A DNA stretch of 64,000 bases from Candidatus Berkelbacteria bacterium (GTDB taxonomy: Bacteria; Patescibacteriota; UBA1384; UBA12157), in contig JBAXXI010000002.1 in the NCBI GenBank assembly GCA_037127955.1, positions 8,377 to 72,376 of the forward strand, in the 5' to 3' direction. The notes below the pieces were generated by a model. That model made no database searches. It saw only the letters and a list, made by a program, of their open reading frames with translations, and was not told the DNA's origin. The stretch's first letter is position 1, and each line of letters opens with the position of its first letter. Positions 36,414 through 42,296 of this stretch are shown here, in pieces. A program made the translations under genes and the position numbers.

Positions 36414-38204
36414 ATGTCAGTAATTTTTACCAAGCAAGAAAATGCCAAGCTTATCCAATTGTTCCCAGGCAGCCTGTTAAACAGGTTTACAGCCGCCCTT
36501 CGCGACGCGATTTGCACCTGCGACTTGTTTAAGTCAACGGTGACCAATATCGTTAACGCGATGTTCGCCTCTGACGCTTTTCAAGCGAAGATTGAGGAAA
36601 TGGTCAAGAATTCAATCAACAGAATTTTTTCTGGAAATTCGATCCAAGAAGTAGTTGAAATCTACATCAAGGAAAACGTTGAAGAAAGAATTGAAAAGAT
36701 TGTTAAAAAGAAAACTGAGAAGGCCGTTGAGGTGTCACTTGGATCTGATTTCTTCAAAGTAGGCATAGAGAAAATCATTGCCGAAAAAATGAAAATACAG
36801 CTTGACGGGATTGCCGATACAATTGAAGCATCGGTTGGGAAAGTAGCAAGCGATTTAAATCATCAAATCTCGACTGAAACAGAAAACATTCGAGAAGATT
36901 TAAAAGCAGAACTGCTGGCGCAAATAGCCAAAATCAATCCTAAACCAAAAGTTGATTCGCAAATTGTCTCGAGCACGATTTCTGGTTTAAGCCAAATTGG
37001 CTCAGCCTTAATCAACGCTAATGCCGCCAAAAAAGTGGCCAATATCAACAACCCGACAAGCGAAACGGAAACCACTGTTGAACCGGAAACAATCGTCAAA
37101 CCTGAAACAATCATCGAACCGGAAACAACTGTTGAACCCGAACCGATCAAGGTTGTGGATCCTGAAGTTGAAAAGGCTGAAGAATACGCCAGACGGCGAG
37201 CTTTAGCGTTAAAAGTTGGTAAAGACAAGAACCGTCAAGTAACTGAAGCCGAAATTGATGATATCTCAAAATGGGAAAAGAATATCACCGAAGAAAGCAT
37301 CGCTTTTTTCTTTGACCGGAACGATACCACTAATCAACTTGCTCAAATGTGCTTTGCTGCCGGTTTAAACCGTGCCCGCAAAACCATCTGGCGCTTAGCT
37401 TGGATTGTCGTTAAAAAATTAGCTACAATCGAACAGGTTTTCGAAGAACTTAAGGTTGAAAATGGCGACCCCGAAGAAATTATCGAAAGATATAGAAACG
37501 GCATTGCCAATAATATCAACGATGTCGGAGACTACCTGGACAGCCTAACCAAGGCCAAGATCGAAGCCACTTTGGCGGTTGACCCCATACTGTACACCAA
37601 ACTGCTCGACCCTGATAATTACGATGCAAATATCGATAAATGGTTTGAGCAGATTACCAAGGCACAAAATGACAATTTGGCAATGGAAGAAGTGATTGAA
37701 GAAGCTTTAGAAATTGTCAGGGGTATTAACCCCACGATTGAAAATGGTGGCATCTTACCTGAAAAGGTTAAAAATGTTACCCCACCGGATGATTTCCTCG
37801 ATAGTATTTTGCTCAACTCTGACAAAGAGAAAGGCGAAAATACTGAAGAAAACGAGCAAGAATTCAAGAATATTAACGACCTGTTCAAGGCCATCGATGC
37901 TCTTGGTCTTCCGGGGACTGAAGAGGAAAGTCAGGAAAACGTTCCTGAAGGCCCACCGACCGAAGCCGAAGTTCGCGAGTACACCTTGGCCGATCTCGAC
38001 CAAAAGATCCTAAAAAAGATGTACAAACGAGCCTTGACCAGAGAAGGTGCGCTAAAAACCATCGGACAGTTATTGGATGCTAATTTTGAAGAGTTGCTGG
38101 CGAAAGTCAGTCACAAAATTAACTCCAAAGAGTTGAAAGAAGCCAAGGACGCTGTTGAAGCCTATGTCCTGGCGACTATCTCTCCCGAACCAACCAAACA
38201 ATAA
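36414..38204 (+). CDS. large alpha-helical hypothetical protein with tandem PET/PE repeats
   Basis: 596 aa. ETETTVEPETIVKPETIIEPETTVEPEP repeat block. RBS AGGGGGA. Confidence 0.5.
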   Translation: MSVIFTKQENAKLIQLFPGSLLNRFTAALRDAICTCDLFKSTVTNIVNAMFASDAFQAKIEEMVKNSINRIFSGNSIQEVVEIYIKENVEERIEKIVKKKTEKAVEVSLGSDFFKVGIEKIIAEKMKIQLDGIADTIEASVGKVASDLNHQISTETENIREDLKAELLAQIAKINPKPKVDSQIVSSTISGLSQIGSALINANAAKKVANINNPTSETETTVEPETIVKPETIIEPETTVEPEPIKVVDPEVEKAEEYARRRALALKVGKDKNRQVTEAEIDDISKWEKNITEESIAFFFDRNDTTNQLAQMCFAAGLNRARKTIWRLAWIVVKKLATIEQVFEELKVENGDPEEIIERYRNGIANNINDVGDYLDSLTKAKIEATLAVDPILYTKLLDPDNYDANIDKWFEQITKAQNDNLAMEEVIEEALEIVRGINPTIENGGILPEKVKNVTPPDDFLDSILLNSDKEKGENTEENEQEFKNINDLFKAIDALGLPGTEEESQENVPEGPPTEAEVREYTLADLDQKILKKMYKRALTREGALKTIGQLLDANFEELLAKVSHKINSKELKEAKDAVEAYVLATISPEPTKQ

Positions 38205-39964: not shown

Positions 39965-40258
39965 ATGAAAAAACAATATTATACATATTTTTTAACAAAT
40001 AAAAATAATACGGTTTTATATATTGGTGTTACGAATAATTTAATCAGAAGAGTCTACGAACACAAAAATAAATTAATCGATGGTTTTACTTGTCATTACA
40101 ACCTGGATAAGCTAATTTATTTTGAATTATTAGATGATCCAAAAACAGCAATTGCAAGAGAAAAACAACTAAAAAATTGGCACAAAGATTGGAAATGGAA
40201 TTTGATAAAAGCAAATAATCCTAACTTAAAAGATTTATATGACGAGATGCTGAAATAA
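39965..40258 (+). CDS. GIY-YIG nuclease family protein (stand-alone, 97 aa)
   Basis: YTYFLTNKNNTVLYIGVTNNLIRRVYEHK is a GIY-YIG core. Confidence 0.85.
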   Translation: MKKQYYTYFLTNKNNTVLYIGVTNNLIRRVYEHKNKLIDGFTCHYNLDKLIYFELLDDPKTAIAREKQLKNWHKDWKWNLIKANNPNLKDLYDEMLK

Positions 40259-40278: not shown

Positions 40279-41430
40279 TTATTTCATCGCTTTCTTAAGC
40301 TCTTCCACCTTATCTGTCTTTTCCCAAGTCAGGTTTAATTCTGTTCTACCAAAATGCCCATAAGCGGCTAGTTTTTGGTATACTGGTTTACGTAAATCTA
40401 GAGCCTCGATAATCATGCCTGGGCGTAAATCAAAAACTTTATTGACAGCTTCGGCAATCTTATCATCTTCAAACTTACCGGTACTAAAGGTATCAACTCG
40501 AACTGACATAGGCTCAGCTCGACCAATCGCATAAGCAATTTGCACTTCGGCGCGTTCAGCGAGCCCGGCAGCCACAATATTTTTGGCAACCCAACGGGCG
40601 GCATAACTACCAGATCGGTCAACCTTACTTGGATCTTTACCAGAGAAAGCACCGCCACCGTGGCGAGCATAACCGCCATAAGTATCGACGATAATTTTGC
40701 GACCAGTTAAACCAGTGTCGCCTTGAGGCCCACCAATCACGAAACGACCAGTAGTATTAACATAGAATTTAGTTTTACTGTCCAAATATTTCTCTGGAAC
40801 AACTTTTTTAATCACTAATTCGATAATTTCTTTTTGCAACTCTTTTTGTTTAATATTTTCATCGTGCTGAGCCGCGATTAAAACTGATTCAACTCTGACC
40901 GGTTTGTTACCATCGTACTCCACTGTGACCTGAGTCTTTCCATCTGGTCGAAGACCTTTGATAATCCCTTTTTTCCTAACTTCAGCTAAACGCGCAGCTA
41001 ATTTATGAGCTAAAACGATTGGTAAAGGCATAAGTTCCTTGGTTTCGGAACAGGCATAACCAAACATCAAACCTTGATCGCCGGCGCCAAGTTTCTCCAT
41101 ATTTTCCGCATCAACACCGCGAGCAATATCTACCGATTGACCAGTAATAGCCACATTGACGCCGCTAGTTTGCCAGTGGAAACCATATTCTGAGTCTGTA
41201 TAACCAATTTCTTTAATTTTGTTGCGAACAATCTTTTGAACATCAACATAAGTGTTAGTGGTAATTTCACCAGCAACCAAACAAAAACCATTAGTCAAAA
41301 AGGTTTCGCAAGCCACCCTAGCTTGAGGATCGTCAGTTAAAATTGCATCTAAAACCGCATCGGAAATTTGGTCAGCCATTTTGTCTGGGTGACCCTCGGT
41401 CACTGATTCGGAAGTAAAAAACTTTCGCAT
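40279..41430 (-). CDS. metK: S-adenosylmethionine synthetase
   Basis: [29 protein letters not shown] and DTYGG motifs. Confidence 0.97.
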
Positions 41431-41444
41431 TTTGTCCTTTCATT

Positions 41445-41580
41445 TACAAAAAAATCACCTTTTAAGGTGATGTATATTTTTACATTTTTCCCTAAAGGGT
41501 CGGAATTAGCACCCAACTTAAAGGGTTGCTGGTGGATCAACGGGCCGAATCCCTAACCACACTCTGAATATATTTTAGTT
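41445..41580 (-). promoter_or_regulatory. SAM-I (S-box) riboswitch in the metK leader, with intrinsic terminator as expression platform
   Basis: Minus-strand leader contains AGGGAUUCGGCCCGUUGAUCCACCAGCAACC … GGUGCUAAUUCCGACCC, matching the SAM-I core (GAGGGA-YGGCCCGAUGA…GGCAACC…GUGCYAAUUCC). This is followed by UCACCUUAAAAGGUGA and a U-run just before the metK ATG. Confidence 0.7.
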
Positions 41581-41592
41581 ATTAATAAATCG

Positions 41593-41653
41593 ATTGTAAT
41601 ATTAACCTGTATTTTTGTCAAATATTGACAAGAAAAATTAATTTTGCTAGTAT
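41593..41653. promoter_or_regulatory. divergent promoter region with palindromic -35 pair (TTGTCAAATATTGACAA)
   Basis: Minus strand: TTGACA-17-TACAAT drives the metK riboswitch leader. Plus strand: TTGACA-17-TAGTATAAT lies upstream of the 41703 gene. Confidence 0.55.
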
Positions 41654-41702
41654 AATCTCACTCCATTTTTTTGATGGAGGTTTTGTTACAAAGGAGACTG
41701 TT

Positions 41703-42119
41703 ATGAGCAAACATTACACTAAATCATGGCTTTTCCGTTGCGCTGACGATCGTTACGGAAAAAATTTGGAATTAAGAAATGGCCTTAAGGCTATTTTGAA
41801 CGATGCTGATGTCAAGGTTGCATTTGGACCCATGACTCCTTTTGGTAATTCTCTTGGTTTCACTAATCAAGATTTTTGCAATTATCTTCCAAGTGAAATC
41901 AAAACAGCTCGTCACCTTGGTATCGAAGAAATTATCTTCATCGATCACCTTGATTGCGGTGCTTTTTCTCTAACCTATGGTAAATTAACTGCCGAAGAAG
42001 AAGAGAAAAAACATCTCGAATCAATCGAGGTCGCCAGACGTTTCTTCAAGCAAAATGCACCGGACATGAAATTTGTCGCTTATCTACAAGATTTCGATAA
42101 TTTCAAAAAAATCTGCTAA
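41703..42119 (+). CDS. short beta-carbonic-anhydrase-like protein (139 aa)
   Basis: CADDR (CxDxR) and HLDCGA (HxxCG) zinc-ligand motifs of beta-CA. ATG at 41703 after AAAGGAG. Shorter than canonical beta-CA. Confidence 0.4.
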   Translation: MSKHYTKSWLFRCADDRYGKNLELRNGLKAILNDADVKVAFGPMTPFGNSLGFTNQDFCNYLPSEIKTARHLGIEEIIFIDHLDCGAFSLTYGKLTAEEEEKKHLESIEVARRFFKQNAPDMKFVAYLQDFDNFKKIC

Positions 42120-42296
42120 CTCCATCCCCGCACTCGATGCGGGGTTTTTATTTTAATAATAGTAATAATTAAAATATTTTAACCATGAACCAAAAAATAG
42201 GGGTGTTGATTTTGTTTGACACATATGTTAGCCTAAAAAAAGCACGACTAAAAATAGTAAAATAGATTTTTCTAATTTATAGATCTTATTTATATT

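What the first reader, a model, noticed from the sequence alone, without database searches (positions are those of the whole stretch)
41445..41580. SAM-I riboswitch with terminator platform in the metK leader
The minus-strand leader carries the conserved SAM-I core (…AGGGAUUCGGCCCGUUGAUCCACCAGCAACC…GGUGCUAAUUCCGACCC…) followed by a hairpin plus U-run ending 15 nt before the metK ATG. It is driven by a consensus promoter whose palindromic -35 is shared with a divergent gene.
Basis: partly seen in the sequence, partly recalled or inferred. Interest (0 to 1): 0.5.

Follow-up and report, generated by a model that had tools for sequence, protein, structure and literature searches.

The report
SAM-I riboswitch controlling metK (Berkelbacteria)
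This is an ordinary SAM-sensing RNA switch (SAM-I / S-box) with a transcription terminator in front of the SAM synthetase gene metK; its only unusual points are that the host is an ultrasmall candidate-phyla-radiation bacterium and that the RNA is a trimmed-down variant.

Summary
The finding holds. Window 41479-41574 (minus strand) matches Rfam RF00162 (SAM-I) over the full model, at 54.9 bits against a gathering score of 44.4 (E 6.3e-10). It is the only Rfam hit in the 64 kb. By itself it folds into the P1-P4 four-way junction. The P2-loop/J3-4 pseudoknot is present. 20 of the 22 positions a published survey lists as highly conserved are kept, including every base it names in SAM recognition.

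A 7-bp hairpin plus U-run (41448-41471) follows. Then come a Shine-Dalgarno site and the ATG (41430) of a true metK (TIGR01034, 600 bits). Orthologous leaders from other Patescibacteria keep the same order of aptamer, terminator, SD and metK. Their helices, pseudoknots and terminator stems covary.

The most likely mechanism is the classical S-box one: SAM locks P1 and P4, the terminator forms, and metK is switched off. The antiterminator I propose is weak and only inferred.

Novelty is low: a new member of a known kind. The host is a Candidatus Berkelbacteria MAG. The k-turn is non-standard (U at 2n and 3n), and P3, P4 and P1 are minimal.

The parts
41616..41621 (-). -35 hexamer TTGACA of the metK leader promoter
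   Evidence: TTGACA/17/TACAAT, 11 of 12. TTGACA is conserved 61-64 nt upstream of the end of AGAGUG in 5 of 6 Patescibacteria leaders.
41593..41598 (-). -10 hexamer TACAAT. The inferred transcription start is about 41586, roughly 14 nt before P1.
   Evidence: Identical in L164 although the spacer differs at 4 positions. The start site is inferred, not measured.
41479..41574 (-). SAM-I (S-box) aptamer, 96 nt. P1 is 41567-41572 with 41481-41486. P2a is 41557-41562 with 41531-41535. The k-turn has non-bulged strand UUA 41554-41556 and bulged strand GUUGAU 41536-41541. P2b is 41551-41553 with 41542-41544. P3 is 41523-41530 with 41508-41514. P4 is 41497-41499 with 41490-41492.
   Evidence: RF00162 54.9 bits, E 6.3e-10, full model. 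The MFE of the aptamer alone is the four-way junction. Covariation.
41500..41548 (-). Pseudoknot: P2 loop UCGG (41545-41548) pairs with J3/4 CCGA (41500-41503).
   Evidence: Read from the sequence. It covaries with CUGG/CCAG in L168 and L001 (helix 4 has 3 of 4 pairs with changes on both sides), and likewise in L167, L081 and L171 (leader sequences).
41461..41500 (-). Proposed antiterminator. UUUAGGG (41490-41496; P4 loop and 3' strand) pairs with CCUUAAA (41461-41467; terminator 5' arm and loop). It encloses the hairpin AUGUA (41481-41485; P1 3' strand) with UACAU (41470-41474).
   Evidence: This is the MFE of the full leader, -30.5 kcal/mol, against -30.2 for aptamer plus terminator. It excludes P1, P4 and the terminator stem. 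It is weak: z = -1.24 against shuffles. Inferred.
41448..41471 (-). Intrinsic terminator. Stem 41465-41471 with 41454-41460 (7 bp, 3 G-C), loop UAAA, U-run 41448-41453.
   Evidence: Hairpin -7.3 kcal/mol. Equivalent hairpin plus U-run with different stem sequences in L164, L165, L168, L001, L167, L081, L171 and L170.
41435..41439 (-). Shine-Dalgarno AAGGA, 4 nt before the ATG
   Evidence: GAAAGG(A/T) is conserved before the ATG in the orthologous leaders.
40279..41430 (-). metK, methionine adenosyltransferase (383 aa): the regulated gene
   Evidence: Exact protein is MEI6039914.1, Candidatus Berkelbacteria MAG.
41625..41653 (+). Divergent promoter (TTGACA, 17 nt, TG-extended TAGTAT) for the 138-aa gene at 41703-42119. 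Its -35 is the other arm of the inverted repeat.
   Evidence: The -35 and -10 are conserved in L165.

Best explanation
A SAM-I (S-box) riboswitch in the 5' leader of metK in a Candidatus Berkelbacteria (Patescibacteria/CPR) genome acts as a SAM-dependent OFF switch by premature transcription termination. Transcription starts from a sigma-70-type promoter about 14 nt upstream of P1. When SAM is abundant it binds in the pocket between P1 and P3 of the four-way junction. This stabilises the all-A-U/G-U P1 helix and the 3-bp P4. The segment 41461-41474 is then free to form the terminator hairpin with 41454-41460, and RNA polymerase releases at the U-run 17 nt before the metK start codon. When SAM is scarce, the 3' strands of P4 and P1 pair instead with the linker and the 5' arm of the terminator (the antiterminator). 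The hairpin does not form and metK is transcribed and translated from its own exposed SD. Shown here: aptamer identity, its helices and pseudoknot, the downstream terminator-like hairpin, the gene identity, and conservation of this layout in relatives. Inferred: SAM binding, the start site, the antiterminator pairing and the direction of regulation.
For: RF00162 full-length hit above the gathering score. The aptamer MFE is P1-P4. On 14 aptamers, 90.8% of cells are paired against 34-47% when partners are slid, with 16 pairs changed on both sides and 0 of 500 shuffles reaching the covariation score. The pseudoknot UCGG/CCGA covaries with CUGG/CCAG. 20 of the 22 positions listed as highly conserved in PMC3764141 are kept in the alignment. 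These include the G11-C44-G58 triple that the paper names for the methionine moiety. They also include the P1 pairs A6-U88 and U7-A87 and the P3 pair A45-U57 around the pocket; their contact roles are from my own knowledge of PDB 2GIS. The two exceptions are U4->A, compensated by its partner, and G19 (k-turn 2n)->U. The window's k-turn non-bulged strand UUA is exactly the G2nU,G3nU variant that still folded and bound SAM in T. tengcongensis SAM-I (Kd 1.95 against 0.54 uM; PMC3651934). Terminator. Orthologous Patescibacteria leaders all place a hairpin plus at least 6 U after the aptamer, with unrelated stem sequences: L164, L165, L168, L001, L167, L081, L171 and L170. The antiterminator and terminator states are within 1 kcal/mol (-30.5 against -30.2/-29.5). 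An analogous pairing of the P4/J4-1 3' side with the terminator 5' arm appears in L164, L001 and L167. The gene is metK, the classic S-box target.
Against: The score is modest (54.9 bits against 66-95 for the Firmicutes leaders). The k-turn is non-standard. The aptamer is no more stable than shuffles (z -0.20). The terminator is weak (-7.3 kcal/mol, 3 G-C pairs). The antiterminator is short and not better than chance on its own (z -1.24, 24 of 200 shuffles). In the unliganded ensemble the terminator pairs still have about 0.78 probability. No comparable antiterminator was found by the same test in L165, and L168 gave a different alternative. There are no expression or binding data. Some relatives at 73-75% MetK identity (L172, L173) have no aptamer, so the control is dispensable.
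Confidence: 0.85

Rival explanations
1. The aptamer is a genuine SAM sensor, but the switch does not work through the antiterminator I drew. The hairpin could be a largely constitutive, leaky attenuator whose efficiency SAM tunes kinetically (polymerase pausing or P1 folding speed), or some other alternative pairing could be used.
For: The proposed antiterminator is weak and not significant against shuffles. The terminator remains about 78% populated without ligand in the thermodynamic ensemble. The antiterminator pairing is not recovered in L165 or L168.
Against: The two states are near-isoenergetic, which is what a switch needs. The alternative pairing uses exactly the P1 and P4 3' strands that ligand binding would lock. 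Similar pairings occur in L164, L001 and L167.
Confidence: 0.1
2. The element is a decaying relic of a SAM-I riboswitch that no longer binds SAM. metK would then be expressed constitutively, past a weak hairpin.
For: Low bit score. Non-canonical k-turn (U at 2n and 3n). Minimal P3 and P4. A P1 with no G-C pair. Some Patescibacteria relatives lack the element.
Against: All the ligand-pocket positions checked are intact (against PMC3764141). Compensatory changes maintain P1, P2a, P3, P4 and the pseudoknot between leaders whose MetK proteins are only 75-88% identical to the window's. The same k-turn substitutions are tolerated experimentally (PMC3651934).
Confidence: 0.03
3. SAM binding controls translation, by occluding the SD, rather than transcription.
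For: SAM riboswitches upstream of metK in Lactobacillales (the SMK box) act on translation (my own knowledge). The SD lies only about 9 nt after the U-run.
Against: Reading the leader, I found no segment complementary to AAGGA other than the terminator's own arm, and that pairs at most 4 bp. The SD is unpaired in all predicted structures. A hairpin plus U-run is conserved in all relatives, including L167, L170 and L171, where it lies 60-130 nt upstream of the SD.
Confidence: 0.02

Closest known systems
S-box / SAM-I riboswitch leaders of Firmicutes (Rfam RF00162), e.g. Bacillus subtilis metK and yitJ, and the Thermoanaerobacter tengcongensis aptamer (PDB 2GIS)
   Same: Four-way junction P1-P4, P2-loop/J3-4 pseudoknot, the same ligand-pocket nucleotides, a location upstream of a SAM/methionine gene, and a terminator expression platform in which the P1 3' strand is shared with an antiterminator.
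   Different: The aptamer is compact at 96 nt. P3 is reduced to 7 bp with an 8-nt loop. P4 is 3 bp with a 4-nt loop. P1 has only A-U and G-U pairs. There is an extra bulged U in P2a. The k-turn has U at 2n and 3n instead of G. The antiterminator draws on the P4 3' strand as well as the P1 3' strand. The host is a Berkelbacteria MAG, not a Firmicute.
T. tengcongensis SAM-I k-turn variant G2nU,G3nU (Schroeder, Daldrop & Lilley 2011, PMC3651934)
   Same: The non-bulged strand reads UUA before the C-helix, as in the window (41554-41556). The laboratory variant still folded its k-turn inside the riboswitch and bound SAM (Kd 1.95 uM).
   Different: That was an engineered change in a thermophile aptamer. 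Here it is a natural sequence, with U rather than A at 3b, so 3b.3n is U.U. Binding is untested.
SAM-IV (RF00634) and SAM-I/IV (RF01725), the other members of clan CL00012
   Same: They share the SAM-binding core (P1, P3 and junction nucleotides).
   Different: Those classes lack the P2 k-turn and the SAM-I-type pseudoknot. The window has both, and the clan competition in cmscan kept RF00162 as the best model.
SMK box (SAM-III) upstream of metK in Lactobacillales
   Same: Same ligand and same regulated gene (feedback control of SAM synthetase).
   Different: It is an unrelated fold that acts by SD sequestration. The window shows no SD occlusion and has a terminator instead.

Membership tests
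SAM-I riboswitch (Rfam RF00162, S-box) | Covariance-model score at or above the curated gathering score over the full model | tested here: met
   54.9 bits against 44.4, E 6.3e-10, model 1-108/108.
SAM-I riboswitch (Rfam RF00162, S-box) | Four helices P1-P4 around a four-way junction | tested here: met
   The MFE of 41479-41574 is exactly P1-P4. 90.8% of cells are paired and 16 pairs have changes on both sides across 14 aptamers.
SAM-I riboswitch (Rfam RF00162, S-box) | Pseudoknot between the P2 loop and J3/4 | tested here: met
   UCGG (41545-41548) with CCGA (41500-41503). It covaries with CUGG/CCAG in relatives.
SAM-I riboswitch (Rfam RF00162, S-box) | Standard k-turn in P2 (3-nt bulge followed by tandem G.A / A.G) | tested here: inconclusive
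   The 1b.1n G.A pair is kept (G41538, A41554), but 2n and 3n are U, giving A.U and U.U. The same substitutions (G2nU,G3nU) were tolerated in a solved SAM-I variant (PMC3651934). Folding here is untested.
SAM-I riboswitch (Rfam RF00162, S-box) | Conserved ligand-pocket nucleotides (2GIS numbering: A6-U88, U7-A87, G11, C44, A45, U57, G58) | tested here: met
   All are present in the alignment. 20 of the 22 positions listed as highly conserved in PMC3764141 are kept.
SAM-I riboswitch (Rfam RF00162, S-box) | Binds S-adenosylmethionine selectively | not testable with these tools
   Needs in-line probing, ITC or equilibrium dialysis.
SAM-I riboswitch (Rfam RF00162, S-box) | Lies in the 5' leader of a sulfur/methionine/SAM metabolism gene | tested here: met
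   The aptamer ends 48 nt upstream of metK (TIGR01034 equivalog, 600 bits), on the same strand, with no intervening ORF.
Transcription-terminating expression platform (intrinsic terminator with competing antiterminator) | G+C-containing hairpin immediately followed by a U-run, between the aptamer and the start codon | tested here: met
   7-bp stem, 4-nt loop, U-run 41448-41453. -7.3 kcal/mol. Conserved in position but not in sequence in 8 related leaders.
Transcription-terminating expression platform (intrinsic terminator with competing antiterminator) | An alternative helix that shares nucleotides with both P1 and the terminator | tested here: inconclusive
   A candidate exists and is the MFE of the leader. 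It is weak (z -1.24) and is not recovered in L165 or L168.
Sigma-70-type promoter | TTGACA and TATAAT-like hexamers 16-18 nt apart upstream of the leader | tested here: met
   11 of 12 matches with a 17-nt spacer. TTGACA is conserved at the same distance in 5 of 6 leaders. Such matches are not enriched over shuffles in this A+T-rich region, and the start site is unmeasured.

The most novel reading that the evidence does not exclude
The window's element belongs to a Patescibacteria-specific, streamlined branch of SAM-I. Within that branch the P2 k-turn is relaxed: 2n is not G in 4 of 5 aptamers. Sister lineages replace the k-turn's non-bulged strand with 40-60-nt helical insertions (k-junction-like; L167, L081, L171) or drop the k-turn altogether (L002). 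The curated Rfam model partly or wholly misses these forms. If so, native riboswitches are under-counted in CPR genomes, and this one would be a ready-made, host-compatible SAM-responsive control element for the genetic tools now being built for Patescibacteria.
Probability: 0.45. Interest if true: 0.4.

Novelty: new member of a known kind. Interest (0 to 1): 0.2.

Why it matters
As a riboswitch it is routine: SAM-I in front of metK is the textbook S-box arrangement, and any Rfam-based annotation would find it. Its value is contextual. It shows that a metabolite-sensing RNA and intrinsic termination are used natively in a Berkelbacteria/CPR genome. In the paper library I could search, riboswitches are mentioned for this group only as a hoped-for synthetic tool (PMC11665869), and no paper pairs 'SAM-I riboswitch' with 'Patescibacteria'. 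It also provides natural examples of SAM-I aptamers carrying the k-turn substitutions that were shown in vitro to be rescued by tertiary contacts (PMC3651934).

Tried and rejected
1. Translational control was rejected. Reading the leader, I found no anti-SD segment, and the SD is unpaired in all folds.

2. I looked for a single shared -35 hexamer. There are two adjacent hexamers in an inverted repeat. The repeat is not conserved in L164 or L165, so I do not read it as an operator.

3. Thermodynamic stability is not evidence here. The aptamer (z -0.20), the whole leader (z -0.78) and the antiterminator (z -1.24) are no better than shuffles.

4. I considered pairing of the terminator 5' arm with the P3 3' strand (GGGUG) or with P2a as an antiterminator. 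Only 3-5 bp are possible and none appears in any predicted fold.

5. Three of the 12 encoding-contig look-ups returned no DNA.

6. Rfam found nothing at E<=0.1 in L170, L171, L002, L037, L082, L083, L172 or L173. My own model R1 then recovered L170, L171 and L002 but not the others.

7. Two literature searches for native riboswitches in CPR/Patescibacteria found nothing specific. A third, listing CPR group names, ranked only the same PNAS perspective with 'riboswitch'. Absence from that library is not proof of novelty.

8. The AUG-UAA at 41484-41479 inside the P1 3' strand is part of the conserved SAM-I core, not a mini-ORF.

Full report
**Observation**

A cmscan of the whole 64-kb window against Rfam 15 returns one hit at gathering threshold. 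It is RF00162 (SAM riboswitch, S-box leader), 41574->41479 on the minus strand, 54.9 bits (gathering 44.4), E 6.3e-10, covering model positions 1-108 of 108.

**Anatomy of the aptamer**

Folded alone, the 96-nt segment gives the SAM-I four-way junction as its minimum-free-energy structure.

- P1 is UAUAUU/AAUGUA (41567-41572 with 41481-41486). It has six pairs and none is G-C.
- P2a is G(u)GUGG/CCACC.
- P2b is GGG/CCC.
- P3 is AGCA-A-CCC/GGG-UGCU with an 8-nt loop.
- P4 is CCC/GGG with a 4-nt loop.
- The P2 loop UCGG (41545-41548) is complementary to CCGA in J3/4 (41500-41503). This is the SAM-I pseudoknot.

I compared the window, through the alignment, with the positions that PMC3764141 lists as highly conserved in SAM-I. 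Twenty of 22 are kept.

- The kept positions include G11, C44 and G58, the triple that paper names for recognising the methionine moiety.
- They also include A6-U88, U7-A87, A45 and U57. That these form the rest of the pocket is my own recollection of PDB 2GIS.
- One exception is U4->A, which is compensated by its partner.
- The other is G19->U.

G19 is position 2n of the P2 k-turn. In the window the non-bulged strand reads UUA (41556-41554) and the bulged strand GUUGAU. The G.A pair at 1b.1n is therefore kept, while 2b.2n is A.U and 3b.3n is U.U. This is the same non-bulged strand as the engineered G2nU,G3nU variant of the T. tengcongensis aptamer. That variant still folded its k-turn within the riboswitch and bound SAM with Kd 1.95 uM, against 0.54 uM for the natural sequence (PMC3651934). 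The unusual k-turn and the shortened P3 and P4 explain the modest bit score. They do not argue against function.

**Gene and organism**

The ORF 40279-41430 (-) has the three S-AdoMet synthetase Pfam domains. It matches the metK equivalog TIGR01034 at 600 bits against a cutoff of 309. The exact protein is MEI6039914.1, from a Candidatus Berkelbacteria MAG, on contig CAZJOX010000001.1 of GCA_964547745.1. Its closest MetK relatives, at 72-88% identity, are from Patescibacteria/CPR MAGs. Berkelbacteria is a candidate phylum.

**Comparative evidence**

I fetched metK loci of relatives.

RF00162 hits lie directly upstream of metK in:
- L164 (MetK 88% identical; 55.0 bits)
- L168 and L169 (57.8 bits)
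- L165 (50.4 bits)
- L001 (45.7 bits)
- L167 (32.9 bits) and L081 (33.3 bits), both below the gathering score

I aligned 5 Patescibacteria and 9 other aptamers and imposed the structure read from the window. 90.8% of cells form standard pairs, against 34-47% when the 3' partners are slid by 1-3 columns. Sixteen of 29 pairs show changes on both sides. None of 500 shuffles reaches the observed covariation score.

The pseudoknot covaries. It is UCGG/CCGA in the window, L164 and L165. It is CUGG/CCAG in L168 and L001, and in L167, L081 and L171 (sequences).

A model trained on this alignment (R1) also finds aptamers upstream of metK in three loci that were not in the training set and that Rfam missed at E<=0.1:
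- L171 (34.0 bits)
- L170 (32.4 bits, Berkelbacteria)
- L002 (27.1 bits, Saccharibacteria)

L172, L173, L037, L082 and L083 have none. The element is therefore widespread but patchy in this radiation.

**Expression platform**

After the aptamer comes AUCACCU-UAAA-AGGUGAU (41471-41454), then UUUUUU (41453-41448). The hairpin is worth -7.3 kcal/mol. It is followed by 17 nt that contain the SD AAGGA (41439-41435), and then the ATG at 41430.

Every orthologous leader has a hairpin followed by at least six U in the same place, with different stems:
- L168: ACUACC/GGUAGU
- L001: UCUCAUCA/UGGUGAGA
- L167: AUUUCCU/AGGAAAU
- L081: AUCGUGCC/GGUACGAU
- L171: AUCUCCC/GGGAGAU
- L170: CUCACC/GGUGAG

This is good evidence that the hairpin is a selected terminator.

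The unconstrained MFE of the whole window leader (-30.5 kcal/mol) is not aptamer plus terminator. It is an alternative fold. In it, UUUAGGG (41496-41490; the P4 loop and 3' strand) pairs with CCUUAAA (41467-41461; the terminator 5' arm and loop). That helix encloses a hairpin of AUGUA (41485-41481; the P1 3' strand) with UACAU (41474-41470). The state with P1 and P4 enforced forms the terminator at -30.2 kcal/mol.

So the leader has two nearly isoenergetic, mutually exclusive folds, and ligand-stabilised P1 and P4 would tip the balance to the terminator. That is the classical S-box logic. Similar pairing of the P4/J4-1 3' side with the terminator 5' arm appears in L164, L001 (strong) and L167.

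The antiterminator has clear caveats.
- It is no better than shuffled controls (z -1.24).
- The terminator pairs keep about 0.78 probability in the ligand-free ensemble.
- The same test finds no such helix in L165 and a different one in L168.

The antiterminator is therefore an inference. The presence of the terminator is an observation.

**Promoter**

On the minus strand, TTGACA (41621-41616), 17 nt, TACAAT (to 41593) matches 11 of 12 positions. It would start transcription about 14 nt before P1. On the plus strand, TTGACA (41625-41630), 17 nt, TG-extended TAGTAT (to 41653) faces the 138-aa gene at 41703-42119.

The two -35 boxes are the arms of an inverted repeat separated by 3 nt. They are adjacent, not the same hexamer. 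Promoter-like matches are not enriched in this A+T-rich stretch (4 found against 3.6 expected). However, TTGACA is found 61-64 nt upstream of the end of AGAGUG in 5 of 6 Patescibacteria leaders. The plus-strand -35 and -10 are conserved in L165. The palindrome as such is absent from L164 and L165, so I read it as two back-to-back promoters rather than an operator.

**Comparison with known systems, and novelty**

The element passes the membership tests for SAM-I that sequence analysis can address. The exception is the standard k-turn, where it carries a variant already shown to be tolerated. It works like, and is a member of, the S-box/SAM-I family with a terminator platform. It sits upstream of metK, as in Bacillus and Clostridia.

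What is different:
- The host lineage is a CPR bacterium.
- The aptamer is compact.
- The k-turn is relaxed. 2n is not G in 4 of 5 Patescibacteria aptamers, whereas GA is present in all 9 others.

The paper library I could search holds nothing on native riboswitches in Patescibacteria. It holds only a suggestion to use synthetic ones (PMC11665869). That is weak evidence of novelty, because Rfam-based annotation would flag this element automatically.

**Verdict**

It is a new member of a known kind, of low interest (0.2).

Noticed in passing
L170:1234-1354, L171:1228-1354, L002:2766-2861: These loci carry SAM-I-like aptamers upstream of metK, in a Berkelbacteria MAG (L170), an unnamed metagenome contig whose MetK is 76% identical to the window's (L171) and a Saccharibacteria MAG (L002). 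Rfam RF00162 and its clan miss them at E<=0.1, but a clade-trained model finds them at 32.4, 34.0 and 27.1 bits. L002 has a plain G-C hairpin for P2, with no k-turn and no obvious SAM-I pseudoknot, so it is closer in style to SAM-IV or SAM-I/IV.
   Followed up: partly
L167:~1270-1411, L081:1807-1952, L171:1228-1354: Three related metK aptamers carry 40-60-nt insertions forming one or two extra hairpins. The insertions lie in the non-bulged strand of the P2 k-turn, while UGA is kept on the bulged strand. This could be a k-junction-like elaboration of SAM-I. For L167, Rfam misplaces the 5' half of the aptamer.
   Followed up: partly
window 41554-41556, and the same columns of L164, L168, L001 (alignment A1): k-turn position 2n is U (window, L164) or A (L168, L001) in 4 of 5 Patescibacteria aptamers, but G in L165 and in all 9 non-CPR aptamers aligned. 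These natural variants mirror the engineered G2nU,G3nU and G2nA variants that still bind SAM (PMC3651934).
   Followed up: partly
window 41703-42119 (+), with 5' UTR hairpin 41661-41679: The divergent 138-aa gene has no Pfam hit at threshold. It has a weak match to beta-carbonic anhydrase Pro_CA (E 0.024). A 142-aa and a 136-aa protein encoded near metK at two relatives' loci hit PF20393 Pro_CA_2. Its short 5' UTR begins with a hairpin CUCCAU/AUGGAG followed by GUUUUGUU. The hairpin recurs with changes in L165 (CUCUAUCG/CGAUGGAG). A strong terminator follows the gene at 42126-42144.
   Followed up: partly
window 39965-40258 (+): A 97-aa GIY-YIG domain ORF sits between metK and the NIF3-family gene. 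In L165, L167, L168 and L171 metK is directly followed by the NIF3-family gene. The ORF therefore looks like a lineage-specific insertion, possibly a mobile or homing-type nuclease.
   Followed up: no
window 36414-38204 (+): A 596-aa ORF contains a short tandem peptide repeat (ETTVEPETIVKPETIIEPETTVEPEP). I did not run it against any family library.
   Followed up: no
L172 and L173 (upstream of metK at 1501): Two Patescibacteria metK genes at 73-74% identity to the window's have no SAM-I aptamer. L173 has only a TTGACA promoter and a short leader. The riboswitch has therefore been lost or gained repeatedly within the radiation.
   Followed up: partly
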